Source: Minisyncoccota bacterium (GTDB lineage Bacteria; Patescibacteriota; Minisyncoccia; Phycocordibacterales; UBA9973). From it: a stretch of DNA of 64,000 nt. Positions 4,665 to 54,470 of this stretch are shown here, in pieces (the stretch's first letter is position 1; every line of letters begins with the position of its first letter). Both the position numbers and the translations under genes were made by a program. Location of the stretch: assembly GCA_036405895.1 (NCBI GenBank), contig DASWWS010000002.1, positions 124,029 through 188,028 of the forward strand, written 5' to 3'. The notes under the pieces were generated by a model. It was not told the DNA's origin. It saw only the letters and a program-made list of their open reading frames with translations, and did no database searches.

Positions 4665-4725
4665 AGTACCGCCACTGTATCATGAAAATACAGTTTTTTA
4701 AAGACTACCCTGCTATACTCTATAC

Positions 4726-5025
4726 ATGACCACTACACACAAAGTACTTGTTGGAATTCTTATCATTATTGTTATTGCGCTTCTTGCGCGCTACGTTGTT
4801 TTTAAAGAAAAGTTCGATGAATGGGGTGCAGGACTCCAGCGTATTGAAGACTGGCAGACTGAGTACAAGCAAAAGAACCCAAATGCTTCCAAAGAAGAAA
4901 TGGATGCTGCATTTGAAGCTGGCATGGACAACATCACTGAGTGGAAAGCAGAGTATAAGCGCGATAATCCAGGCGCGACAGATGCCGAGGCGGATGCTGC
5001 ATTTTCCGCAATGTGGAATAACTAA
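4726..5025 (+). CDS. small membrane-anchored protein with tandem W-x-x-EYK-x-x-NP...DAAF repeats
   Basis: N-terminal TM helix, then two copies of a motif of about 28 aa. TGCTATACT-N6-ATG. Confidence 0.65.
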   Translation: MTTTHKVLVGILIIIVIALLARYVVFKEKFDEWGAGLQRIEDWQTEYKQKNPNASKEEMDAAFEAGMDNITEWKAEYKRDNPGATDAEADAAFSAMWNN

Positions 5026-9576: not shown

Positions 9577-9650
9577 CCGCTCTTAGCTCAGTTGGTTAGA
9601 GCGCCGAGCTTATACCTCGGTGGTCCATGGTTCGAATCCATGAGGGCGGA
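9577..9650 (+). tRNA. tRNA with anticodon UAU (Ile, AUA-decoding)
   Basis: Acceptor CCGCTCT/AGGGCGG (one G-U), D-arm TAGCTCAGTTGGTTAGAGC, anticodon arm CCGAG-CTTATAC-CTCGG, T-arm CATGG-TTCGAAT-CCATG. Confidence 0.8.
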
Positions 9651-9744
9651 CATTAAGTAAACAAATATGCAGTATGCCTCTGAGGCAATGGCGTGTAGCG
9701 TTTCGACCCCAGGGAGAGGCGGACAAGTGCTATACTGTACACAT

Positions 9745-10215
9745 ATGAATGAATTTGTAGCAAAGAAACTCGGCGAAGTGCTCGCCTTTAACCAAGTCGG
9801 CACGGACACCTATGAAAAAGGAAAAGAAGCACTCATCGCAGTACTGGGAGCTGAACGTTTTGCGGATATTGAAGACAAGAACCGCATTCACGGAGAAGCA
9901 GTGATGAAGATCGCGACCGACGCGGGCATGATCGACACAACGCTTGCAAAAGCCGAAAAGACCGGAGAGAAGCTCAAGGCTATGCGCGACCTCTATGTTG
10001 GTGACCAATGGGACAATGCCACAGAGCTGATGGAATGGAGCGGATTTTTCGAAGGCGCAGCAATCGTGCACTGGGCGCTGGTGCGCGGTGCGGCAGAAGG
10101 CATGAATGACGAAACCCTCCTCGAACTTTCAAACGAAGGAGTGAATTGGCACTATGAGCTTTTGGAAATGGCTGAAAGCGAACTCGGCACCACCGGACAG
10201 AACAAGGCTTCCTAA
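9745..10215 (+). CDS. hypothetical helical protein (possibly a ferritin-like four-helix bundle)
   Basis: ORF 9667..10215. Start moved to ATG 9745 (TGCTATACT-N8-ATG) so it no longer abuts the tRNA. The functional guess is weak. Confidence 0.55.
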   Translation: MNEFVAKKLGEVLAFNQVGTDTYEKGKEALIAVLGAERFADIEDKNRIHGEAVMKIATDAGMIDTTLAKAEKTGEKLKAMRDLYVGDQWDNATELMEWSGFFEGAAIVHWALVRGAAEGMNDETLLELSNEGVNWHYELLEMAESELGTTGQNKAS

Positions 10216-12188: not shown

Positions 12189-12455
12189 AGGCTTTATTAT
12201 ACATAAAAACGATAAAAACGCCTTTTAGGGGGTATCGACCTCCAGGTTACTAAATATTTTTCAGGGTATCGCCTCACAAATCACTAAGCATAATTCTTCG
12301 CTCCACTCGAATTCTGCCAAGTGTTCGCGAGCCCGGCTCGGTTCCGCCATAGGCGGATACCTGCGCCTTTTCGATACCCACGCAAGACAAGCAGTTGCCC
12401 TGTTCCATCTCCACCTAAAAAACAAAAAACGCCCAAGGGCGCTAATGTTGTTACA

Positions 12456-12841
12456 GGTGGAGATGGGGGTATCGAAACCCCGTGCAAATGATCACGAACA
12501 AGTACTTCTCCATGCGTAGTACGATTTAATTGTTAAGACAGAATCTCAAAACCGTACAAAACGATTCATGTCCGAGCCTCGATTGTTTCGGAGTACTGAC
12601 GAGACACGCAGTACTTCCTACGTTCGATGAATGTTGCCGCGACTACGTTATCGAACATCACGTAGAGCGACACCGGATTGACCTAAATTTAGGCGAATGC
12701 CGGAGCGAAGTTTCCAAAATATGGAGACTTCACTGATGCTGTGCTGTTGCCAGGTAAGCGTTCGGACGAATTTTACGAGATACGTCCATTCTCGGCATGC
12801 ATACAGGCCCGATACATCAAATGTCGAAACCTTTCATCCCC
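12456..12841 (-). ncRNA. ssrA: tmRNA (SsrA)
   Basis: 5' GGGGATGAAAGGTTTCGAC and 3' GGGGTTTCGATACCCCCATCTCCACC, with a G3-U70 acceptor. Internal tag frame 12751-12689 reads GNSTASVKSPYFGNFAPAFA-stop. Lies directly downstream of smpB. Confidence 0.9.
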
Positions 12842-17545: not shown

Positions 17546-18016
17546 TTACGAAGGCCACTCGCCTTCCATGAAGCAGGAATATCCTACATCCGTATGTTCC
17601 TGATTGCAGCGGCCGTTTGGCGGCAGTTTCTCAAACTTCACAAAAACAATGTAACTTTGATTGTTAGCATTGTATACGCCGTATTGCACATTGCAGTTTA
17701 CATTGTTGGGATCCTTTGGGTATGCCGGCAAAAACCCTTCGGTGACCAAGCTCTGCATAAAATTATTGTTCACTGTTGTGTACCCTTCCGTACCGACGCA
17801 TTCATTTTCCGTCTCGTGCGGATAATACCCATATTTGTCATAATAAAATTCCAGTCCTTTTTGTATTTCACGGATGGTGGCTGCCCGCTGCGCATCGCGT
17901 GCCTTTCCTCTCGCACTGTTCAAGGATGTCATCACAACGGATGCCAAAATCCCAATCACTGCGATGACGACCAAAAGTTCAATAAGGGTGAAGCCTCGAC
18001 TGGCATTAGATTTCAT
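17546..18016 (-). CDS. type IV pilin-like protein
   Basis: SRGFTLIELLVVIAVIGILASV. TGCTATACT-N6-ATG. Confidence 0.85.
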   Translation of the reverse strand: MKSNASRGFTLIELLVVIAVIGILASVVMTSLNSARGKARDAQRAATIREIQKGLEFYYDKYGYYPHETENECVGTEGYTTVNNNFMQSLVTEGFLPAYPKDPNNVNCNVQYGVYNANNQSYIVFVKFEKLPPNGRCNQEHTDVGYSCFMEGEWPS

Positions 18017-18033
18017 GTAAAGAGTATAGCAAA

Positions 18034-27623: not shown

Positions 27624-28022
27624 TTACACCAAAAAGAGTAGTTTTGGAATGAAAATGATCGCTCCTATTGAGGCTGCACTGAGAACCGAGATAAGCACAG
27701 CGCCGGCTGCGACGTCTTTGGTATCTTTTGCGTACGGATGATACTCGGGGCTGGTGAGATCGATATCTATCTCAAAGGCGGTATTAATCGCTTCTGTTAC
27801 CAAAACAGCCGCCATCGCCAAAATAAGGATGCACCACTCCACCGGAGCGATGCGTAGCCATACCCCAAGAGCGGTTACAAGAGCTGCTGCGGCAATTTGG
27901 ATCCAAAAGTTGTGCTGGGTGCGCACAATGATGCGAAGTCCCCGTACGGCGTATTTAAAGCTTCGAGCGCGTGCGATAAGCGAGAACCGTTTCTTTTCCG
28001 AAATATGTTTTACAGCATTCAT
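27624..28022 (-). CDS. dgkA: diacylglycerol/undecaprenol kinase family (DgkA-like) membrane protein
   Basis: Three TM helices, FKYAVRGL...EAINTAFE motif. TGCTATACT-N6-ATG. Lies between rplB and rpsS. Confidence 0.8.
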   Translation of the reverse strand: MNAVKHISEKKRFSLIARARSFKYAVRGLRIIVRTQHNFWIQIAAAALVTALGVWLRIAPVEWCILILAMAAVLVTEAINTAFEIDIDLTSPEYHPYAKDTKDVAAGAVLISVLSAASIGAIIFIPKLLFLV

Positions 28023-28058
28023 AGCGTGAGTATAGCAAACAAACAGCAGATACCCCTC

Positions 28059-31381: not shown

Positions 31382-32575
31382 TTAGGCAATAACCTTAGTT
31401 ACCACTCCGGCACCGACTGTGCGGCCACCTTCGCGGATAGCGAAACGCATTTGGTCTTCAACACCAACTGGAACAACAAGTTTAACGTTGATCTTCACAG
31501 TGTCCCCTGGCATAACCATTTCTGTTCCTGCTGGGAGTGTTACTTCACCGGTAACGTCAGTTGTACGGATGTAGAACTGAGGCTTGTAACCGTTGATGAA
31601 AGGAGTGTGACGACCACCTTCTTCCTTTTTAAGAACGTAGATTTCACCTTCGAATTCTGTGTGAGGTTTTACTGAGCCAGTCTTTGCGAGCACCTGTCCA
31701 CGAGTAAGGTCTTCCTTTTTCACACCACGGAGGAGAATACCTGCGTTGTCACCTGCCATACCTTCAGTCAACTGCTTGTTGAACATTTCGATACCGGTAA
31801 CAGTAGTCTTCATAGTATCTTTGATACCAACGATTTCTACTTCTTCACCAACTTTCACGATACCGCGCTCGATACGGCCAGTTACCACTGTACCGCGACC
31901 TTCAATAGAGAAGATGTCTTCGATCGGCATAAGGAAAGGCTTGTCGATGTCACGTTCTGGAAGTGGGAAGTACGTGTCGAGAGCGTTTGTAAGCTCAAGA
32001 ACCTTCTGTGCCCATTCGTCGTCGATAGAAGTAGCTTCAAGTCCCTTAAGACCTGATCCGCGGATGATAGGACAATCCTTGTCAAAGCCCTGTTTCTCAA
32101 GGATTTCACGGATTTCTTCTTCCACGAGTTCGATCATGTCAGGATCATCAACCATGTCGCACTTGTTGAGGAACACGATGATTTTTGGAACACCCACCTG
32201 CTTCGCAAGGAGGATGTGTTCGCGAGTCTGAGGCATAGCACCGTCAGTCGCAGCAACCACGAGCACAGCACCGTCCATCTGAGCGGCACCAGTAATCATG
32301 TTCTTGATGTAGTCGGCGTGGCCTGGTGCATCAATGTGAGCGTAGTGACGAGACGCTGTTTCGTACTCGTTGTGTGAGATGTTGATAGTAATACCACGCG
32401 CCTTTTCTTCAGGTGCGCCGTCAATATCGCTAACTCCTTTCATTTTAACTTTGTCTCCGTTCATGTTCAAAACATGAAGGATCGCCGCTGTAAGGGTAGT
32501 CTTACCGTGGTCAACGTGACCGATGGTACCTACGTTTACGTGCGGCTTTGAGCGATCAAATGCTTCTGCAGCCAT
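31382..32575 (-). CDS. tuf: elongation factor Tu
   Basis: [27 protein letters not shown]. Start at ATG 32575. Confidence 0.98.
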
Positions 32576-32716
32576 AATAATATACTGATTAATTAAGTAA
32601 TAAGTTCCAAACAAAAACAATCTGCCCGACGCCGTTTAAAGAGCGCGGACGCAAAAATGATTGTGGGCGTATCGTACTATAAATTGGAAGCCTCTGTCAA
32701 ACCACTCTTCTATACA

Positions 32717-32742
32717 AAATCCCCTCTTATGAGGGGATTTTG
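32717..32742 (-). terminator. intrinsic terminator after the small-ORF pair
   Basis: AAAATCCCCTC-ATAA-GAGGGGATTTTGT on the minus strand. Confidence 0.8.
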
Positions 32743-32922
32743 TTATTTTGCTGCAGCAAGCGCTGCTTCTCCTTCTCTAATTTTTGCCAACAATGCTTTT
32801 GATTCTTTGTCGAGATTTTCCTCTCCACCAATGGAGTTTAATTCGGCTTGTATTTCTTGGCTCTGTCGGGCAATTTTCTGATCCAAAGTTTCAGGAGAAA
32901 GGGTTTTTTCAAAATTTTCCAT
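32743..32922 (-). CDS. small acidic helical protein, 59 aa (MENFEKTLSPETLDQKIARQSQEIQAELNSIGGEENLDKESKALLAKIREGEAALAAAK)
   Basis: Hand-translated; below the ORF-track length cutoff. Its ATG is 2 nt after the upstream ORF stop (TAATTATG). A terminator follows. Confidence 0.5.
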   Translation of the reverse strand: MENFEKTLSPETLDQKIARQSQEIQAELNSIGGEENLDKESKALLAKIREGEAALAAAK

Positions 32923-32924
32923 AA

Positions 32925-33086
32925 TTATCCTTGTGCTGCTGTTAATGCGTCCTTTATATTCTTGATATATTTCTTCAATACGTCATAAGAAAAGCTGATT
33001 TCCTGAAGCAGTTCTTCTTGCTCAAGGTCTGTAGCCTCCCCCATTTGTACTTTTTCGATTAGCTCGTCCATTCGTGCCTGATCCAT
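32925..33086 (-). CDS. small acidic helical protein, 53 aa (MDQARMDELIEKVQMGEATDLEQEELLQEISFSYDVLKKYIKNIKDALTAAQG)
   Basis: Hand-translated. Has its own TGCTATACT -10 (33120-28, rc) and a GGAAAGAG Shine-Dalgarno sequence. Sits between the fusA terminator and the second small ORF. Confidence 0.5.
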   Translation of the reverse strand: MDQARMDELIEKVQMGEATDLEQEELLQEISFSYDVLKKYIKNIKDALTAAQG

Positions 33087-33136
33087 AGTGTTGTACTACT
33101 CTTTCCTTGTAATAGCAACAGTATAGCATTTTAAGA

Positions 33137-33161
33137 CAAAGACCGGCATAACCGGTCTTTG
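33137..33161 (-). terminator. intrinsic terminator after fusA
   Basis: CAAAGACCGG-TTATG-CCGGTCTTTG on the minus strand, followed by a T-rich tail. Confidence 0.7.
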
Positions 33162-33168
33162 TTGAGTA

Positions 33169-35310
33169 CTATTTTCGAGATTCGATAATCGTTGCCGCAA
33201 CGTTTTGCGGAACAATGTCGTAGCGGAGGAATTCCATCGTAAACGATGCGCGTCCTTCGGTCATAGAACGAAGCGTTGTCATGTATCCGAACATTTCTGA
33301 AAGAGGAACAATGGCGTTGACCACCTGGTTCATACCGCGAGATTCCATGCCCTCAATGATTCCACGGCGAGATGACATAGAACCCGTAACGTCGCCGAAG
33401 AATTTCTCAGGGGTCACCACTTCCACCTTCATCATCGGTTCGAGGATCACCGGCTTTGCAGCATTTGCTGCGTCTGTGATTGCCATTGAAGCGGCAATTT
33501 TAAACGCCATTTCGTTTGAGTCGACTTCGTGGTAGCTACCGTCATAGAGTTCAACGGAAACATTTTCCATTTTAAAGCCTGCAAGAATACCGCGGTCCAA
33601 GCCTTCCTTGAATCCTTTTTCGATCGGCGGAATGTATTCACCCGGAATCGCACCACCTTTGATAGTGTTGACGATTTCAAGCGTACCGATGCGCTTCACA
33701 TTTTTTGGAAGGTCTTTCGGATCAGCTGACTGATCAAGCGGCTTGATGCGGATTTTTACGTGACCGTAGTTACCCTTACCACCAGACTGTTTGATGTACT
33801 TCCCTTCAGCCTGCGCTTCAGCGGTGATTGTTTCGCGATATGCAACCTGTGGCTTCCCTACATTTGCTTCCACGTTGAACTCGCGCTTCATGCGGTCAAC
33901 AATGATTTCCAAATGAAGTTCACCCATGCCGGCAATAATTGTTTCTTCTGTTTCAGGATCGGTCGACACTTTGAATGTCGGGTCTTCCTGGGCAAGGCGG
34001 TTGAGTGCAAGACCCATTTTTTCTTGGTCTGCCTTTGTCTTTGGTTCAATGCGAAGGTTAATCACGGGTTCCGGGAAGGTAATACGGTCAAGGAGAATTG
34101 GTGTCTTTTCGTCACAGAGTGTGTCAGAAGTGTTTGTCTCTTTAAGACCAACAGCTGCAGCGATTTCACCTGCAAACACTTTTTTCACTTCTTCACGCTG
34201 GTCAGCCTGCATACGAACAATACGGCTCATGCGCTCTTTGTTTCCAGTGCGCGGGTTGTATACATATGACCCTGCTTCAAGTGTACCTGAGTACACACGG
34301 AAGAAGACGAGCTGTCCGACGAACGGGTCAGCCATGGACTTAAACGCAAGCGCTGCAAAAGGAGCCTTGTCGTCGGCTGGGCAAAGCACTTCTTCGTCAG
34401 TGTCAGGGTTCGTTGCACTAACAGGCTTAATATCAGTCGGAGCCGGAAGATAATCGACAACAGCATCAAGCACGAGCTGAACGCCTTTGTTCTTCAAAGC
34501 AGACCCTGCGTATACAGGGAAGATATCGTTGGCAATAACTGCCTTTCGAAGCATTTTCTTAAGGTCAGCGTATGCAGGCTCGTTTCCTTCAAGATATGCA
34601 TTCATCATTGCTTCGTCGTTTTCAACAATGCGTTCAACGAATTCTGCATGGTACTTCTTGGCATCCTCCATCATGTTTTCAGGGATATCCTTTTCGATCA
34701 CTTTATTTCCCATTTCGCCCTCAAAGTAAAATGCTTTCATTTTCAAAAGGTCTACTACCCCTTCGTGGTTTTCCTCAAGTCCTATCGGAAGCTGTGCGCG
34801 AACCGCTTTCTTTGAAAGACGGTCAAGGATGGTTTTGTATGAGTGTTCAAATGATGCACCGGTACGGTCAAGCTTGTTCACAAAACAAATACGAGGAACA
34901 TTGGCCTCATCGGCATAGCGCCAGTTGGTTTCGGACTGCGGTTCAACACCTGCAACACCGTCAAACACCACAACAGCGCCGTCGAGTACGCGAAGTGAGC
35001 GCTTCACTTCAACAGTAAAGTCGATGTGTCCCGGAGTGTCGATAACGTTGAATCGGAAACGACTGTCCTTTGATCCATTTGCGTACGTTGGAATCCAGGT
35101 ACAAGAAACTGCAGCAGCAGTAATAGTGATACCTCGCTCGCGCTCCTGTTCCATCCAGTCGGTAGTTGTTTCGCCGTCGTGCACTTCCCCGATCTTGTGG
35201 CTCTGTCCTGTGTAGTAGAGCACGCGTTCTGAAGTAGTGGTCTTACCCGCATCAATGTGCGCGATAATACCGAAGTTTCTTGTTTTTTCGAGTGAATATT
35301 CCCGTTCCAT
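33169..35310 (-). CDS. fusA: elongation factor G
   Basis: AHIDAGKTT, DTPGH, NKLD, 713 aa. Confidence 0.98.
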   Translation of the reverse strand: MEREYSLEKTRNFGIIAHIDAGKTTTSERVLYYTGQSHKIGEVHDGETTTDWMEQERERGITITAAAVSCTWIPTYANGSKDSRFRFNVIDTPGHIDFTVEVKRSLRVLDGAVVVFDGVAGVEPQSETNWRYADEANVPRICFVNKLDRTGASFEHSYKTILDRLSKKAVRAQLPIGLEENHEGVVDLLKMKAFYFEGEMGNKVIEKDIPENMMEDAKKYHAEFVERIVENDEAMMNAYLEGNEPAYADLKKMLRKAVIANDIFPVYAGSALKNKGVQLVLDAVVDYLPAPTDIKPVSATNPDTDEEVLCPADDKAPFAALAFKSMADPFVGQLVFFRVYSGTLEAGSYVYNPRTGNKERMSRIVRMQADQREEVKKVFAGEIAAAVGLKETNTSDTLCDEKTPILLDRITFPEPVINLRIEPKTKADQEKMGLALNRLAQEDPTFKVSTDPETEETIIAGMGELHLEIIVDRMKREFNVEANVGKPQVAYRETITAEAQAEGKYIKQSGGKGNYGHVKIRIKPLDQSADPKDLPKNVKRIGTLEIVNTIKGGAIPGEYIPPIEKGFKEGLDRGILAGFKMENVSVELYDGSYHEVDSNEMAFKIAASMAITDAANAAKPVILEPMMKVEVVTPEKFFGDVTGSMSSRRGIIEGMESRGMNQVVNAIVPLSEMFGYMTTLRSMTEGRASFTMEFLRYDIVPQNVAATIIESRK

Positions 35311-43647: not shown

Positions 43648-45288
43648 TTATAAAACCTCCCGTATTCTGAGGCGCACTCCGCTTCGAAAGCCTGGTTCGA
43701 GTGTTGCAGTAAAAGAAATGGTTGCGCCTGGAGAACACTGTGCGCACAGTTCATCGCTCGCAAAAAACGTAAACGCTGTCATGCTTGCAGTCGCGTCCTG
43801 CACCACACATTCCAAATGCTCGCGTGTTTTGCCGAACTTTTTCGCACTTACCACTTCAACATCTTTGAACAAAAACAATGGTTCAGGATTTCCTACCCCA
43901 AACGGTGCAAATCTTCTGATAACCTGATGGTGGCGAGTCGTTGCAATAGCAAGTGGGACTTCTATCGGTGTATGCGCAATGACTGCCTTTTCTGTATCCC
44001 CCACAGTTTCAATCGCACCATTGAGCGCATCTTCTAAAAAGTGTACCTGTTCTTTGCTCACAGAAAACCCGCCCGCTGCCTGGTGTCCTCCTGCGTGAAG
44101 AATCGCTCCTTCGGGAAGCGCCTGAAACAAATACGCGGCATGGTGCACTGCAATCATCCGGCATGAGCCTTTGAGGCTTCCGTCCCCCGCCTCGCCCCAC
44201 ACAAAAAAGCTTCGCTCGTACGTTTCCTGCAGCTTGTTTGCAACCAATCCTAAGACTGCTGGGCGCCATGTCGGGTCGCCAATTACCACAATAGCAGGCA
44301 GTTCGCGCGTGGAGAGGCGCGCATGCGCTTCTTTTACAATGCGTGCCACCAAAAGCTTTCGCTCGTTATTTATCTTGTCGAGTTCAGTAACGATAGTCAT
44401 CGCCTCTGATCGGTCCTCAGTTGCAAGCAAATTAAATGCGAGCATCGGGGTACGCATGCGCGACGCAGCATTGAGGCGCGGCGCAACAGTGAATGTCAGA
44501 TCAGTCTCGGAGAGCTTGTCCATCATCAGTCCATTGTTGGCAAAGAGTGTCTTCAAACCAACGCGACGCGTCTTTTTCATCACCATCATGCCGTATGCTA
44601 CAAGGACGCGGTTTTCGCCGGTCAGCGGGACCATGTCTGAGAGTGTTGCGAATCCCACCATGTCGAGGAGCCACTTCTCCCAGCCCGCTACAATGCCGTA
44701 CTCTTTCCCGTATTTTTCCAAAAATGCACGCACAAGCGTGAACGCAACACCTGCTCCGCAAAGGTCTTGATTAGAGTAGGTACCTTTTGCGGGATGCACA
44801 ACAGCGTATGCTGCGGGGTATTCCGGGAGTGGTGCGTGGTGGTCGGTCACTATGCAATCTATCCCGCGGCTTTGCGCGTCTGCAATTTCAGCAAGGGCGG
44901 TAATACCAACGTCCACGGTGAGCATCAGCGTTACTCGCTGTTTTTGCATCTCGTTAATACCAAGCACGCTCACGCCATATCCTTCATCATGGCGGTCCGG
45001 GATATATACTCGTACATAGTCTGCAACACCGAGTGCCTTAAAAAAATCGAGGAGGATTACTGCAGCCGGAATGCCATCGCAGTCATAGTCGGCGTAAATG
45101 CCAATAAATTCTTTCGCATCCACTGCGCGCTTGATGCGTTCAACCGCACGCTCCATGTCCTCAAATTTCCACACGTCGCCAAGGCTGTATGAAGGGAAAA
45201 GGAATTCTTGCTGTGCCTCTGGTGTGAGCCCCATTCGATCAATTAAAATAGCCTGCAATTCATCAGGCGTCGGAGTAGTTGGTTCCAT
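43648..45288 (-). CDS. recJ: single-stranded-DNA-specific exonuclease RecJ
   Basis: DHH motifs (YADYDCDGI, DHH at VTDHH) and a DHHA1 GGHQAAGG motif. Start at ATG 45288. Confidence 0.92.
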   Translation of the reverse strand: MEPTTPTPDELQAILIDRMGLTPEAQQEFLFPSYSLGDVWKFEDMERAVERIKRAVDAKEFIGIYADYDCDGIPAAVILLDFFKALGVADYVRVYIPDRHDEGYGVSVLGINEMQKQRVTLMLTVDVGITALAEIADAQSRGIDCIVTDHHAPLPEYPAAYAVVHPAKGTYSNQDLCGAGVAFTLVRAFLEKYGKEYGIVAGWEKWLLDMVGFATLSDMVPLTGENRVLVAYGMMVMKKTRRVGLKTLFANNGLMMDKLSETDLTFTVAPRLNAASRMRTPMLAFNLLATEDRSEAMTIVTELDKINNERKLLVARIVKEAHARLSTRELPAIVVIGDPTWRPAVLGLVANKLQETYERSFFVWGEAGDGSLKGSCRMIAVHHAAYLFQALPEGAILHAGGHQAAGGFSVSKEQVHFLEDALNGAIETVGDTEKAVIAHTPIEVPLAIATTRHHQVIRRFAPFGVGNPEPLFLFKDVEVVSAKKFGKTREHLECVVQDATASMTAFTFFASDELCAQCSPGATISFTATLEPGFRSGVRLRIREVL

Positions 45289-45329
45289 GCTCTGAGTATA
45301 GCATTTATCAAATTTGCTATACTCAGAGC
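45289..45329. promoter_or_regulatory. perfectly palindromic divergent promoter region (recJ / HIT)
   Basis: GCTCTGAGTATAGCA-N11-TGCTATACTCAGAGC fills the entire 41 bp between the two start codons. Each arm is TGCTATACT plus 6 nt, followed by the ATG. Confidence 0.75.
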
Positions 45330-45722
45330 ATGACGGACACAATATTTGGAAAAATCATTTTGGGAGAAATCCCTTCCACAAAAGTATATGAGGATGGCGA
45401 CTGTCTGGCCTTTATGGATATCAACCCTGTTGCCAAAGGGCACGTATTATTAATACCGAAAGCGCACTTTGTATGGATGCAAGACGTCCCCGATGTACTC
45501 CTTTCTATGCTTTTTATCCGTGCAAAACGACTGATGATCGCAATGAAAGAGTCTTTAGGGTGCGACTATGTACAAGTTTCGGTTGTCGGGAAAGACGTAC
45601 CACACTTTCACATTCACCTTATCCCGCGCTATATGAACGATGAACTGCACGGCTGGCGCACGGGTACGTATGAAGAAGGCGAGGTTATTGAATTTGCCAA
45701 AAAAATAACAACTGCACTGTAA
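45330..45722 (+). CDS. HIT (histidine triad) family hydrolase
   Basis: HFHIHLIPR triad. INPVAKGHVLLIPK. Confidence 0.92.
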   Translation: MTDTIFGKIILGEIPSTKVYEDGDCLAFMDINPVAKGHVLLIPKAHFVWMQDVPDVLLSMLFIRAKRLMIAMKESLGCDYVQVSVVGKDVPHFHIHLIPRYMNDELHGWRTGTYEEGEVIEFAKKITTAL

Positions 45723-46905: not shown

Positions 46906-47658
46906 TTATTGCAGCGATTTAGCGAGCATGCCAAAGCGCTTTGCATCGAGTGAAACGCGTCCTACCAATAGTCCCTGTACAGTGCCTTCCACAACAAACT
47001 GCTTTGCATTTTGCTCATTCACTGACCCGCCGTAGAGGACCGTAATACCTGCAGCAAATTTCTCTCCATGAACATCGCGGATGAGCTTGCGGATATATAT
47101 CACCATTTCTCGGCACTCAAGTGCTGTTGCTTCGCGCTTTGCATCCTTGCCAATTGCCCAGACGGGCTCGTACGCTATCACAATGTTTTTAAATGCAGCC
47201 TTTGAAACGCTTGAAAGCAGCAAGTCGAGTTGGTCTTTTACGACGCTCAAATACCACCCCTGTGCATCGCGCTCGCGCTCTCCGATGCAAACGATAGGGA
47301 TAATCTTTTTTTCGATTAAACGCGTTACTTGAAGATTTACCGTTTCGTTGGTCTCTCCGCGCTCCCGACTCTCAGAGTGCCCTACGATGCAGTAGTCCAC
47401 CCCTATTCCTTTGAGCTGTGTTGCACTGACAAGCCCCGTATTGGCAACTTCTGTTTCAACAGAGACACTTTGTGCTCCAATCAAAAGCGGTGCGTGTGCA
47501 GACTTAACAACAGGAGCTAGGTGCACAAATGAAGGGCACACTGCCACTTTCAGAAATTTTTTGTAGGTGCGTGCAAGTGCTGCTGTCTTTTTCGCAAGTT
47601 CAAGTGCGAGAGAAGGCTTTTCAGGAGCCATTTTCCAGTTTCCGACCAATAGTATCAT
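46906..47658 (-). CDS. tpiA: triosephosphate isomerase
   Basis: GNWKM...GHSERR-like (GHSESRE)...AYEPVWAIG. Confidence 0.95.
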   Translation of the reverse strand: MILLVGNWKMAPEKPSLALELAKKTAALARTYKKFLKVAVCPSFVHLAPVVKSAHAPLLIGAQSVSVETEVANTGLVSATQLKGIGVDYCIVGHSESRERGETNETVNLQVTRLIEKKIIPIVCIGERERDAQGWYLSVVKDQLDLLLSSVSKAAFKNIVIAYEPVWAIGKDAKREATALECREMVIYIRKLIRDVHGEKFAAGITVLYGGSVNEQNAKQFVVEGTVQGLLVGRVSLDAKRFGMLAKSLQ

Positions 47659-47679
47659 TGTCTTAGTATAGCAGATTTT

Positions 47680-52627: not shown

Positions 52628-54373
52628 CTATTCGCTGACAACTCGCAATACGTCATCAATGGTTGTTTTTCCTTGAGCAGCCTGGAAAATGCCATCTTCA
52701 AGCATTGTCATCATCCCCTCTTTTTTTGCTTGTGCTTCCACTTCGTCCGCGGTGCCATTGCGTAAAATAATTTCCTTGATTGTCGGCGTGATTTTCATTA
52801 CCTCATGAATGCCGATACGGCCCTTGTATCCGTCTTCGCTTTCTTCTGAGGCCTTTGGTTTATAAAAGGGAATCTTCTCCCATGGCATACCCTTTTCAAT
52901 TATGTGCTCAGCTTCCAAAAACTTTCTCATTCGATCAAGGTCAAGCGAGTGCCCGAGCGTTGAAACTTCCACTGCGGTAAGAAAATATGTTTCTTTAGCA
53001 GCAGTCAGACGGCGCACCAAGCGCTGTGCCAAAATGGCTTTTGCGGTCGAAACGATAAGAAACGGCTCAACGCCCATATCAATCAATCGAGGGATAGCGC
53101 CAGCGGCTGAGCTTGTGTGGATAGTGGAGAGCACCAAGTGCCCGGTAAGGGCCGCATTCACTGCCAAGTCTGCAGTTTCGCCATCGCGCACCTCTCCAAC
53201 CATGATGATGTTGGGGTCTTGTCGCAAAAGCGCACGCAAGCCGTTGGCAAAGGTCATACCGATGTCAGACTTTACTTGCGTTTGATTGATGCGCGGCATC
53301 TGATACTCGATCGGGTCTTCAACGGTTGAGATGTTTACCTCCGGCGTATTTAAAATATCGAGCAATGTATAGAGCGTAGTAGTTTTTCCGCTTCCAGTCG
53401 GCCCTGACGCCAAGATAATGCCTGAGTGCTGGCGAAGTGCTTCGTGGATTGCTTCGAGCCCGCTTCCATGAAAGCCTAAGCCTTCAAGCGTAAAGCCGTG
53501 CGTGCTTTCGCGCAAAATACGGACTACTGCCTTTTCGCCATAGTATGTTGGAATGGTCGAGACACGAAACGATACGGGCGTCTCATCAAGCACCATTTTA
53601 AAGCGCCCATCCTGCGGCAAGCGCTTCTCGTCGAGCTTAAGACTCGAGAGCACTTTGATTCGCGCCGTAATTGCCGGAGCTGCACCCTTTGGCAAAGTCA
53701 TTGCGTCATGAAGAATGCCATCGATACGGTAGCGGATTATCATTTCATTTTCTCCGGGCTCCATGTGGATGTCAGACGCGCCCTGCATGATAGCGTGCGA
53801 AATCAATGAGTCCACAATCTTGATTACCGGCAAGTCTTCAGCAAGGGCCTTGAGGTCTCCCACTGATGCGTCCGCATTCACTTGCGGAACATTCTTCAGC
53901 GACAATGCTTCAGTTTGAATAATAGAGTCGAACTCTGCTTGGAGGCTCTTTCGATACTGCTGGAGCACGGCTTTGATAGTTTCGGTATCTGTCAGGCGCG
54001 GCAAGATGCGGAGCTGCGTCTTTTTTTTGATAAAGTCGATAGCGGGCAAGTTATCGATGTCGAGCATTGCAACCTCCAAATCGCTTCCCGACTTTTTATA
54101 CGCAACAATATTGTAGCGGCGCGCGATTGATTCAGGAATCAGCGCAAGCGTGTCCGGGTCGAGACGCTCTTTTGTCAGCCCAATAAATGGAATACCCAAT
54201 ACATATGCCTCTAATCGCTTGATCTCGCTTTCTTTCACTTTTCCCGCATTCAAAAGGAAGTCTGAAAGCGACTGATCTTTATTTTCTCGAGCATCGTAGG
54301 ATTCAATGTCGGCAAGAGATGCGATATTTGCATCAAGTACAAGATTGCGGAGTTTTATTTGATCGATCACCAT
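52628..54373 (-). CDS. pilB: type IV pilus/T2SS assembly ATPase (GspE/PilB family)
   Basis: Walker A GPTGSGKTT, Asp box, Walker B, His box, N-terminal T2SSE_N domain, 581 aa. Confidence 0.95.
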   Translation of the reverse strand: MVIDQIKLRNLVLDANIASLADIESYDARENKDQSLSDFLLNAGKVKESEIKRLEAYVLGIPFIGLTKERLDPDTLALIPESIARRYNIVAYKKSGSDLEVAMLDIDNLPAIDFIKKKTQLRILPRLTDTETIKAVLQQYRKSLQAEFDSIIQTEALSLKNVPQVNADASVGDLKALAEDLPVIKIVDSLISHAIMQGASDIHMEPGENEMIIRYRIDGILHDAMTLPKGAAPAITARIKVLSSLKLDEKRLPQDGRFKMVLDETPVSFRVSTIPTYYGEKAVVRILRESTHGFTLEGLGFHGSGLEAIHEALRQHSGIILASGPTGSGKTTTLYTLLDILNTPEVNISTVEDPIEYQMPRINQTQVKSDIGMTFANGLRALLRQDPNIIMVGEVRDGETADLAVNAALTGHLVLSTIHTSSAAGAIPRLIDMGVEPFLIVSTAKAILAQRLVRRLTAAKETYFLTAVEVSTLGHSLDLDRMRKFLEAEHIIEKGMPWEKIPFYKPKASEESEDGYKGRIGIHEVMKITPTIKEIILRNGTADEVEAQAKKEGMMTMLEDGIFQAAQGKTTIDDVLRVVSE

Positions 54374-54470
54374 TGCTTGTAGTATAGCAACAACACTGCA
54401 AGTATGCGCAATAAAAAAACCACTTCCGTGTTGAAAGTGGTTTTTTTATTTTTTCTACAATGCCCGCAAA

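What the first reader, a model, noticed from the sequence alone, without database searches (positions are those of the whole stretch)
32717..33161. Two translationally coupled micro-ORFs (53 and 59 aa) forming their own transcription unit between fusA and tuf
The fusA terminator (33137-33161) is followed by a TGCTATACT -10, a GGAAAGAG Shine-Dalgarno sequence, and a 53-aa ORF (32925-33086). A 59-aa ORF (32743-32922) starts 2 nt after its stop (TAATTATG), and a terminator follows at 32719-32738. Both products are acidic and predicted all-helical, with heptad-like spacing. The second ends in an Ala-rich tail (EAALAAAK). They were missed by the 60-aa ORF cutoff. A complete promoter/terminator frame and tight coupling argue for real genes. 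The location between the two elongation-factor genes is striking. The function is unknown; a small two-component pair or a translation-associated factor are both possible.
Basis: partly seen in the sequence, partly recalled or inferred. Interest (0 to 1): 0.55.

Follow-up and report, generated by a model that had tools for sequence, protein, structure and literature searches.

The report
Conserved small-protein gene pair in Patescibacteria
The two tiny genes between the EF-G and EF-Tu genes are real and conserved and encode two small acidic helical-hairpin proteins found only in Patescibacteria, but their function is unknown and their position next to the elongation-factor genes is not good evidence for a role in translation.

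Summary
On the minus strand, orfA (53 aa, 32925-33086) and orfB (59 aa, 32743-32922) lie 2 nt apart between fusA and tuf. Both flanking hairpins are present in every relative with different stem sequences, so they are real terminators. TGCTATACT is this genome's consensus promoter box.

Both ORFs are real genes: orfA dN/dS is 0.05-0.18 and orfB is 0.10, with synonymous sites near saturation. About 19 loci, all in Patescibacteria contexts where the source is named, carry the A+B pair. orfA keeps its length (53-59 aa). orfB is always coupled but ranges from 59 to 286 aa and shares only a helix-hGG-helix core.

Most pairs sit between fusA and tuf. Four sit elsewhere, one beside VirD4-like and ArdC genes. 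Other genes have also been inserted into the fusA-tuf spacer, so the position looks permissive rather than functional.

The proposed Shine-Dalgarno sequence is not supported. It lies 12 nt from the ATG in a genome that is mostly leaderless and shows no Shine-Dalgarno sequence upstream of most genes. However, it is the core of a nearly invariant 27-nt leader of unknown role.

Neither protein matches Pfam, NCBIfam, PHROGs, PADLOC or PDB. AlphaFold2 predicts a helical hairpin for each. The best guess is a heteromeric helical bundle. Function remains unknown.

The parts
33169..35310 (-). fusA (EF-G, 713 aa), upstream neighbour
   Evidence: ORF. Pfam domains of the orthologues.
33136..33162 (-). 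Intrinsic terminator hairpin after fusA (ACAAAGACCGG-TTA-CCGGTCTTTGT), with an A-tract and T-tract flank
   Evidence: -18.6 kcal/mol. Eleven loci have perfect stems of different sequence.
33120..33128 (-). Extended -10 promoter box TGCTATACT of the orfAB unit; no conserved -35
   Evidence: The TGnTATACT form (TG-N-TATACT) is invariant in 11 loci. The same 9-mer precedes 9 leaderless genes in the window.
33087..33113 (-). Predicted 27-nt 5' leader (AUUACAAGGAAAGAGUAGUACAACACU), nearly invariant. It contains the conserved purine motif GGAAAGAG (33099-33106). A weak hairpin (UAUUAC/GUAGUA) could display AAGGAAAGA in its loop.
   Evidence: The leader is identical in 10 of 11 close loci, while 37 of 50 third-codon positions in orfA vary and fusA dS is 0.66-1.6. 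The motif is kept in the divergent loci L027, L028 and L033. The fold is not significant (z = 0.13). The transcription start is inferred by analogy with the leaderless genes and has not been mapped.
32925..33086 (-). orfA: 53-aa acidic helical-hairpin protein, the conserved component (invariant LLQE-x-SFSYD-x-L core)
   Evidence: dN/dS 0.05-0.18; pLDDT 92.7; helices 3-14 and 20-51.
32743..32922 (-). orfB: 59-aa acidic helical-hairpin protein. It starts 2 nt after the orfA stop and is the minimal form of a variable partner family (59-286 aa) that shares a helix-hGG-helix core.
   Evidence: dN/dS 0.10; pLDDT 85.8; helices 13-30 and 39-58; IGG in the turn; hhalign E = 6.7e-4 against the long forms.
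32714..32743 (-). Intrinsic terminator hairpin after orfB; it overlaps the last base of the stop codon
   Evidence: -21.3 kcal/mol. Stems of different sequence are present in 11 loci, including the pairs outside fusA-tuf (L016, L021).
32671..32700 (-). Separate tuf promoter (TTGACA-N18-TACGAT)
   Evidence: It is conserved in 8 loci and is retained in L008 after pyrF was inserted upstream.
31382..32575 (-). tuf (EF-Tu, 397 aa; true start is the ATG at 32575), downstream neighbour, preceded by a conserved leader of about 95 nt

Best explanation
SHOWN. orfA and orfB are two real protein-coding genes that form a self-contained bicistronic operon: a consensus extended -10 promoter, a 27-nt leader, orfA, a 2-nt gap, orfB, then an intrinsic terminator. 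They belong to an uncharacterised, rare A+B gene pair found only in Patescibacteria contexts where the source is named.
- A is a conserved 53-59-aa acidic helical hairpin.
- B is always coupled downstream and evolves fast. It keeps only a helix-hGG-helix hairpin core. This genome has the minimal 59-aa form. Relatives add 60-230 residues, some with a Gly/Ala-rich hydrophobic segment and a basic tail.

INFERRED. Coupled translation (termination-reinitiation, as expected in a genome that shows no Shine-Dalgarno sequence upstream of most genes) delivers A and B in fixed proportion. The two hairpins probably pack into a heteromeric four-helix-type bundle. In this model A supplies the conserved interaction surface (SFSYDVL) and B supplies the lineage-specific part.

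The pair has stayed for a long time in the fusA-tuf spacer of one Paceibacteria clade, most likely because that spacer is transcriptionally insulated and tolerates insertions, not because the proteins act with EF-G or EF-Tu. In that clade the unit gained a nearly invariant leader with a GGAAA(A)GAG core. That leader is probably a post-transcriptional control or ribosome-recruitment element rather than a classical Shine-Dalgarno sequence. The cellular function itself remains unknown.
For: Coding status:
- orfA dN/dS is 0.05-0.18 with dS from 0.6 to saturation. Variable columns by codon position are 18/11/37.
- orfB dN/dS is 0.10 (window versus L001) and 0.11 (L008 versus L019).
- Reading frames stay open despite many length changes.

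Operon anatomy:
- Covarying terminators.
- Promoter 9-mer shared with 9 leaderless genes.
- The unit is intact at unrelated loci, each with its own -10 box and terminator.

Pairing: all of about 19 loci carry a coupled downstream ORF.

B-family core: the hGG motif is shared. hhalign of short versus long forms gives E = 6.7e-4, against 0.12-0.33 for the A-versus-B controls.

Hairpin folds.

Permissive spacer: pyrF is inserted in L008 and L028, and a 112-aa ORF in L027. Pairs also lie elsewhere.

Leader constraint.
Against:
- Homology between short and long B forms rests on a weak profile match (hhalign probability 27%), a 3-residue motif and conserved gene position.
- Retention of the pair between fusA and tuf, while orfA diverged to 34-40% identity, is long enough that a functional link to translation cannot be excluded.
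- The transcription start, and so the leader length, is inferred and not mapped.
- No expression data are available.
Confidence: 0.6

Rival explanations
1. Translation-associated factor pair. A and B bind EF-G, EF-Tu or the ribosome (for example as acidic modulators), and the conserved leader couples their synthesis to translational status. On this view the position between fusA and tuf is functional.
For: - The pair sits between fusA and tuf in about 14 lineages, including divergent ones. L027, L028 and L033 have orfA at only 34-40% identity to the window, while EF-G and EF-Tu are 88-94% identical.
- The orfAB unit is the only one of the 10 TGCTATACT promoters in the window that carries a leader, and that leader is nearly invariant.
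Against: - Terminators and separate promoters insulate the pair from both neighbours.
- Homologous pairs lie in unrelated contexts in Saccharibacteria and other contigs.
- Unrelated genes also occupy the same spacer.
- The family is very rare (about 20 clusters among 5.8 billion proteins), which is unlike a core translation factor.
- orfA evolves much faster than EF-G, EF-Tu, S7, S10 or S12.
Confidence: 0.12
2. Domesticated remnant of a mobile two-gene cassette. This could be toxin-antitoxin-like (acidic A neutralising a B effector that carries a hydrophobic and basic tail), or an anti-defence or DNA-mimic module from a conjugative element. In this lineage the effector part of B has been trimmed away.
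For: - The unit has its own promoter and terminator and is found at variable loci.
- In L016 it lies beside a VirD4/TrwB-like ATPase, an SRAP protein, ArdC and an SLFN/AlbA gene. In L031 it lies near Hypoth_Ymh and HTH genes.
- Gene order and coupling resemble type II toxin-antitoxin loci.
- B shrinks stepwise from 286/177 aa to 59 aa, while A keeps its length.
- Some long B forms have a borderline transmembrane segment (Kyte-Doolittle 19-residue window 1.5-1.75) and a basic tail.
- orfA of L027 is closer to the Saccharibacteria type than to the window type, which is compatible with horizontal transfer.
Against: - No match to any toxin-antitoxin, defence or phage family in Pfam, PADLOC, PHROGs or NCBIfam.
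- No tblastn hit in 72,556 plasmids or 50,697 phages and none in viral contigs.
- A has no recognisable DNA-binding domain.
- The putative 'toxin' is the less conserved partner, which is the reverse of most toxin-antitoxin pairs.
- The 59-aa B is still under purifying selection (dN/dS 0.10), and the pair has been kept vertically at one locus for a long time.
Confidence: 0.2
3. orfB is a precursor with a double-glycine processing site. It would be cleaved after the conserved hGG by a C39-type peptidase or exporter to release the variable C-terminal part as a secreted peptide or protein, with orfA as chaperone or immunity partner.
For: - The only well-conserved B motif is h-x-x-h-G-G, preceded by a helix.
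- The region after GG is hypervariable in length and sequence. In some lineages it is Gly/Ala-rich, hydrophobic and cationic.
Against: - The hydrophobic residues are at -3 and -6, not at the -4 and -7 positions of the classical leader consensus. That consensus is from my own knowledge of double-glycine leaders, not from a tool.
- AlphaFold2 places GG in the turn of a compact hairpin.
- The post-GG part in this genome is acidic and helical.
- None of the ten largest window ORFs, scanned against Pfam, is a peptidase-containing ABC exporter. This covers only part of the genome.
- No Pfam leader family matched.
Confidence: 0.05
4. The ORFs are fortuitous, and the conserved sequence is really a non-coding RNA or regulatory spacer for tuf.
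For: - The ORFs are small, have no known domain, and sit in an intergenic position.
- The leader is more conserved than the coding sequence.
Against: - dN/dS is far below 1 with a third-position excess in both ORFs.
- Frames are preserved through many indels.
- The amino-acid motif is conserved down to 30-40% identity at unrelated loci.
- No Rfam match and no significant RNA structure.
Confidence: 0.02

Closest known systems
UPF0291 / DUF896 (B. subtilis YnzC, PDB 3bhp and 2jvd)
   Same: Both are small, acidic two-helix hairpins of about 50 residues with a 'G-x-(L/A)-T-x-x-E' type turn. YnzC is the best Foldseek hit for the orfA model (probability 0.92, TM 0.63, rmsd 1.6 Å over 40 columns, 28-35% identity). 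The function of YnzC is also unknown.
   Different: The Foldseek E-value is only 0.63. There is no sequence-level support: Pfam scans of 18 family members and a profile search against PDB sequences did not recover DUF896 or YnzC. From my own knowledge, YnzC is not described with a coupled B-type partner. Hairpins of this size match many unrelated proteins.
WXG100 / ESAT-6-like pairs (EsxA/EsxB)
   Same: Two adjacent, co-transcribed small genes each encode a helix-turn-helix hairpin with a Gly-containing turn. In WXG100 proteins such hairpins pair into a four-helix bundle (my own knowledge of the family). This is the architecture I infer for A and B.
   Different: A and B are half the size (53 and 59 aa versus about 100). 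Neither has a W-x-G motif (A has Q-x-G-E; B has h-G-G). There is no Pfam match. A and B are not detectably paralogous. No type VII secretion genes were seen. This is a resemblance in layout only.
Type II toxin-antitoxin-style bicistronic cassettes
   Same: A small acidic first gene is tightly coupled to a second gene. The unit has its own promoter and terminator, occurs at variable genomic locations, and is sometimes in mobile-element-like neighbourhoods.
   Different: Neither protein matches any known toxin or antitoxin family. The upstream protein, not the downstream one, is the conserved partner. The downstream protein here is a 59-aa acidic hairpin that is unlikely to be a toxin.

Membership tests
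UPF0291 / DUF896 (YnzC) | Significant match to the family profile or sequences | tested here: not met
   No DUF896 hit for any of 18 orfA-family members at E <= 10. Profile and single-sequence searches of PDB sequences did not find YnzC.
UPF0291 / DUF896 (YnzC) | Same fold (N-terminal two-helix hairpin) | tested here: inconclusive
   Foldseek top hit 3bhp_B: E = 0.63, probability 0.92, TM 0.63. A 50-residue hairpin is too simple a fold to be diagnostic.
WXG100 (ESAT-6-like) | About 100-aa helical hairpin with a central W-x-G motif and a PF06013 match | tested here: not met
   Lengths are 53 and 59 aa. The turns read QMGE and SIGGE, with no Trp. No Pfam hit.
WXG100 (ESAT-6-like) | Adjacent co-transcribed gene pair encoding two hairpins | tested here: met
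   2-nt gap, one promoter and one terminator. Both models are hairpins.
WXG100 (ESAT-6-like) | Heterodimer formation and a type VII secretion ATPase in the genome | not testable with these tools
Only 64 kb of the genome is available.
Type II toxin-antitoxin system | Either protein matches a known toxin or antitoxin family or fold | tested here: not met
   Pfam, NCBIfam, PADLOC and PHROGs gave only sub-threshold noise. Foldseek against PDB was insignificant.
Type II toxin-antitoxin system | Small bicistronic, translationally coupled, autonomously transcribed cassette | tested here: met
Type II toxin-antitoxin system | Toxicity of one partner that is neutralised by the other | not testable with these tools
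   Needs expression experiments.
   GGAAAGAG ends 12 nt from the ATG, and its AAGGA core ends 17 nt away. Spacing varies from 8 to 15 nt among relatives, and the GGA is lost in L012. fusA, tuf, rpsJ, rpsG and rpsL lack any SD; only rplC has a GGAGG-like motif, about 12 nt upstream. Nine TGCTATACT promoters give leaderless starts and upstream regions across the window are mostly AT-rich. The 16S 3' end is not in the window.
Rho-independent (intrinsic) terminator | GC-rich hairpin followed by a T-run, with the stem kept by compensatory change | tested here: met
   Both hairpins (33136-33162 and 32714-32743) are followed by TTTGT. Eleven loci each have perfect stems of different sequence.
Double-glycine leader peptide (bacteriocin or PCAT substrate) | Leader consensus with hydrophobic residues at -4, -7 and -12 before GG, and a cognate C39-peptidase exporter | tested here: not met
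   Hydrophobic residues fall at -3 and -6. GG lies in a hairpin turn. No such exporter is among the ten largest window ORFs scanned against Pfam (this covers only part of the genome).
Known RNA family (Rfam) | Covariance-model match at or above the gathering score in 32400-33300 | tested here: not met
   The gathering-threshold scan found only tmRNA and tRNAs elsewhere in the window. The permissive scan gave only sub-threshold hits on the terminator hairpins.

The most novel reading that the evidence does not exclude
The A/B pair is a Patescibacteria-specific regulator tied to translation. It has been kept for a very long time exactly between the EF-G and EF-Tu genes. It is the only unit among the window's consensus promoters that carries a leader, and that leader is nearly invariant and holds a GGA-type motif in a possible hairpin loop. 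That layout resembles a binding site for a CsrA-like or other RNA-binding regulator (my recollection of the CsrA consensus, not tested here). On this reading the two acidic hairpins would modulate EF-Tu, EF-G or the ribosome, and the leader would provide feedback control. This would be a new translation accessory system in organisms with reduced ribosomes.
Probability: 0.1. Interest if true: 0.7.

Novelty: new variant of a known kind. Interest (0 to 1): 0.38.

Why it matters
The finding adds a validated small-protein family pair, about 55 aa each, to the large uncharacterised proteome of Patescibacteria. The pair comes with clear boundaries, a defined promoter and two terminators, so it can be cloned and tested directly.

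The analysis also shows that position next to fusA and tuf is a poor guide to function here. In addition, it exposes how this genome starts its genes: a TGCTATACT box 6-8 nt before the ATG gives leaderless mRNAs. Against that background, the nearly invariant orfAB leader and the structured tuf leader stand out as candidate regulatory RNAs.

If the proteins turned out to act on translation or on host or phage interaction, that would matter for understanding these ultra-small episymbionts. As it stands, this is a solid but modest result: real genes, new family, unknown role.

Tried and rejected
- Known protein families. Pfam, NCBIfam, PHROGs and PADLOC scans of A, B and the long B forms gave nothing above threshold.
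- Solved structures by sequence: nothing.
- Foldseek. The orfA model gave only the weak YnzC hit against PDB and nothing significant against BFVD. The orfB model gave nothing against PDB. The afdb50 library was unavailable.
- A and B as paralogues: rejected (hhalign E = 0.12 and 0.33).
- Upstream mini-ORF starting at the predicted +1 AUU (I-T-R-K-E-stop). It looked conserved in L012, L028 and L033 but is rejected, because in L027 the frame has no stop and a different peptide.
- Structured leader RNA. The MFE is no better than for shuffled sequences (z = 0.13), so the small hairpin is only a possibility.
- C-terminal Ala-rich tail of B as an ssrA-like degron. The likely tmRNA tag ends ...GNFAPAFA. 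B ends in -AAAK, -ALAK, -LAA or -IAA depending on lineage. This is not consistent enough to claim.
- Plasmid, phage and viral-contig searches for A and long B: no hits.
- Literature searches on Patescibacteria small proteins with fusA/tuf, on novel ribosomal proteins, and on leaderless mRNAs in the Candidate Phyla Radiation: nothing relevant.
- RNAalifold on the terminators was noisy because the stems are not in register. It was replaced by per-locus folding.

Full report
OBSERVATION

On the minus strand the window reads, in order: fusA (33169-35310), a hairpin, TGCTATACT, 33 nt, orfA (32925-33086, 53 aa), TAA-TT-ATG, orfB (32743-32922, 59 aa), a hairpin, and then a TTGACA-N18-TACGAT promoter with a leader of about 95 nt before tuf, whose ATG is at 32575.

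ARE THE ORFS REAL GENES?

A search of 5.8 billion proteins found 10 clusters for orfA at 69-94% identity, almost all 53 aa long. It found 2 clusters for orfB. The named sources are Paceibacterota and Patescibacteria MAGs, where the proteins are already deposited as 'hypothetical protein'.

I fetched the encoding contigs. They show the same order, rpsL-rpsG-fusA-orfA-orfB-tuf-rpsJ, in L001, L003, L006, L010, L012 and L014 and in L019, L023 and L025.

- orfA: dN/dS is 0.05-0.18. Variable columns by codon position are 18, 11 and 37.
- Divergence of the genomes: the flanking fusA has dS of 0.66-1.6 against the same genomes, so they are well diverged at silent sites.
- orfB: dN/dS is 0.10 between the window and L001 (dS 0.70), and 0.11 between L008 and L019.

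Both ORFs are therefore under purifying selection as proteins. The non-coding alternative is rejected. It is also contradicted by the absence of any Rfam match.

TRANSCRIPTION UNIT

Each of 11 loci has a perfect 11-15 bp hairpin after fusA and another after orfB. The stems differ in sequence between loci and are always flanked by ACAAA and TTTGT. That is strong comparative evidence for two intrinsic terminators.

TGCTATACT occurs 10 times in the window. The other nine copies lie 6-8 nt upstream of an ATG that opens an ORF of 99-581 aa. More genes have TGnTAnnnT boxes at the same distance. This genome therefore starts many genes as leaderless mRNAs from an extended -10 promoter, and the box upstream of orfA is a consensus promoter.

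There is no conserved -35 element. L014 even has a 12-nt insertion between the terminator and the -10 box.

tuf keeps its own promoter in all loci. That includes L008, where pyrF has been inserted between orfB and tuf. It has not been mapped experimentally.

THE PROPOSED SHINE-DALGARNO SEQUENCE AND THE LEADER

GGAAAGAG ends 12 nt before the ATG. Genes with secure starts (fusA, tuf, rpsJ, rpsG, rpsL) have AT-rich or CA-rich upstream regions with no Shine-Dalgarno motif; upstream regions across the window look similar. Only rplC has a GGAGG-like motif, also about 12 nt upstream of its ATG. A classical Shine-Dalgarno role is therefore not supported.

The 33 nt between the -10 box and the ATG are nevertheless almost invariant. 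Ten of 11 close loci are identical except at the first base, while orfA third-codon positions are nearly saturated.

The core GC(T)ATTA(C/A)-N-(A/G)GGAAA(A)GAG survives in the divergent fusA-tuf members L027, L028 and L033, at 8-15 nt from the ATG. In these loci orfA is only 34-40% identical to the window, while EF-G and EF-Tu are 88-94% identical.

By analogy with the leaderless genes, +1 should be the A at 33113, which gives a 27-nt leader. A small hairpin (UAUUAC/GUAGUA) could present AAGGAAAGA in its loop, but the fold is no better than shuffled sequence. An upstream mini-ORF was considered and rejected. The role of the leader is unexplained. This is the most unusual feature of the locus.

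THE PROTEIN FAMILY

A profile search of 1.84 billion cluster representatives found only 10 proteins. They include a more distant type...GELTxxEELxLLKEINFSYDVLNKFLEELK..., of 54-71 aa.

The contexts of these distant members are as follows.
- L028 (with pyrF inserted), L033 and L027 lie between fusA and tuf.
- L016 lies beside a VirD4/TrwB-like ATPase, an SRAP protein, ArdC and an SLFN/AlbA gene.
- L021 (Saccharibacteria) lies downstream of rplJ-rplL, with other genes in between.
- L030 follows a NUDIX gene.
- L031 lies near Hypoth_Ymh and HTH genes.

In the four loci outside fusA-tuf, a -10 box sits 6-7 nt before the orfA ATG, so these units are leaderless, and a terminator follows the second gene. 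Every locus has a coupled downstream ORF, with a gap of -4 to +7 nt.

The partner is 59, 62-66, 78, 122, 132, 158-163, 168-177 or 286 aa long. The 286-aa form in L027 contains the module twice. The shared features are:
- an acidic N-terminus (ME(Q)FP in the close clade);
- a helix-hGG-helix core;
- in longer forms, a GLENxKQxLWFNP-like motif;
- in some lineages, a Gly/Ala-rich hydrophobic segment (Kyte-Doolittle 1.5-1.75) and a basic tail.

hhalign of short versus long forms aligns the hGG region with E = 6.7e-4. The A-versus-B controls give 0.12-0.33. The window's orfB is thus the minimal core of a variable partner family.

STRUCTURE AND KNOWN FAMILIES

AlphaFold2 predicts a two-helix hairpin for each protein.
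- orfA: helices 3-14 and 20-51, pLDDT 92.7.
- orfB: helices 13-30 and 39-58, with IGG in the turn, pLDDT 85.8.

Foldseek's best PDB hit for orfA is YnzC/UPF0291, with E = 0.63 and probability 0.92. No sequence-level test supports membership of that family. orfB has no PDB hit. BFVD hits are insignificant. Pfam, NCBIfam, PHROGs and PADLOC give nothing. Plasmid, phage and viral-contig searches give nothing.

INTERPRETATION

What is shown: this is a real, autonomously transcribed, translationally coupled pair of small acidic hairpin proteins. It belongs to a rare A+B family found only in Patescibacteria contexts where the source is named. A is conserved and B is variable.

What is inferred: the two hairpins form a heteromeric helical bundle made in fixed proportion, and B carries lineage-specific additions that this genome has lost.

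The position between fusA and tuf is old within one Paceibacteria clade. However, three facts favour a permissive, well-expressed slot over a functional link to elongation factors: the unit is insulated from both neighbours, other genes have entered the same spacer, and the pair occurs elsewhere. I give the translation-factor reading about 0.12, a mobile-cassette origin (toxin-antitoxin-like or anti-defence) about 0.2, and a GG-processed precursor about 0.05.

VERDICT

No described family accommodates the pair. The layout resembles other coupled small-protein cassettes, so I rate it a new variant of a known kind, of moderate interest (0.38). The nearly invariant leader is the most promising thing to follow up.

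Noticed in passing
window, e.g. 18016-18031(-), 28022-28037(-), 47658-47673(-), 54373-54389(-), 4711-4728(+), 9728-9747(+): The 9-mer TGCTATACT occurs 10 times in 64 kb. Nine copies lie 6-8 nt upstream of an ATG that opens a long ORF, and many more genes have TGnTAnnnT at the same distance. This Paceibacteria genome appears to use leaderless mRNAs widely, and most genes show no Shine-Dalgarno sequence upstream.
   Followed up: partly
window 32576-32670 (-): tuf has its own TTGACA-N18-TACGAT promoter and a highly conserved leader of about 95 nt. The leader has an outer CACAATC/GATTGT pairing and an inner hairpin with two compensatory pairs (GUCCG...CGGGC versus GUCUA...UAGAC). The inner hairpin is deleted in L027. 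There is no Rfam match. It is a candidate uncharacterised tuf leader element.
   Followed up: partly
window 45288-45332: A perfect 18-nt inverted repeat, CATGCTCTGAGTATAGCA-N11-TGCTATACTCAGAGCATG, forms two divergent, identical leaderless promoter-plus-start modules. One serves the RecJ-like gene on the minus strand and the other a 130-aa ORF on the plus strand.
   Followed up: no
L008 1899-2756; L028 3027-3896; L027 2703-3041: The fusA-tuf spacer collects other insertions in relatives. pyrF (OMP decarboxylase) lies between orfB and tuf in two lineages, and a 112-aa ORF on the opposite strand lies between fusA and orfA in another.
   Followed up: partly
L006, L010 versus window: Identities are mosaic along the str operon. 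L006 has fusA at 99% but tuf at 94% identity to the window, and L010 has fusA at 90% but tuf at 98%. tuf dS (0.1-0.46) is much lower than fusA dS (0.66-1.6). This suggests recombination and/or strong codon constraint on tuf.
   Followed up: no
window 12455-12841 (-): Rfam finds a full-length tmRNA (108.7 bits), but ARAGORN does not detect it. The likely tag reading frame ends ...GNFAPAFA*.
   Followed up: partly
window 9577-9651 (+): ARAGORN calls a tRNA-Ile with anticodon TAT (UAU). From my own knowledge this is uncommon in bacteria, which usually decode AUA with a lysidine-modified CAU tRNA.
   Followed up: no
P0025 (181 aa, from the representative library): The orfA profile hit a protein with five repeats of VTFTYDVLK(Q/R), which resembles the SFSYDVLKK core. 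It looks like a translated DNA repeat array rather than a relative.
   Followed up: no
window 32674-32680, 33166-33172 and 8 other sites: ATAGTAC occurs 10 times in the window, against 3.3 expected. Conserved copies lie at the fusA stop codon and in the tuf promoter, and a related GTAGTAC lies in the orfA leader. The meaning is unknown.
   Followed up: no
L027 3320-4180: The orfB homologue here is 286 aa and contains the module twice. Each copy ends in ...HEWRLKRHEAK.
   Followed up: no
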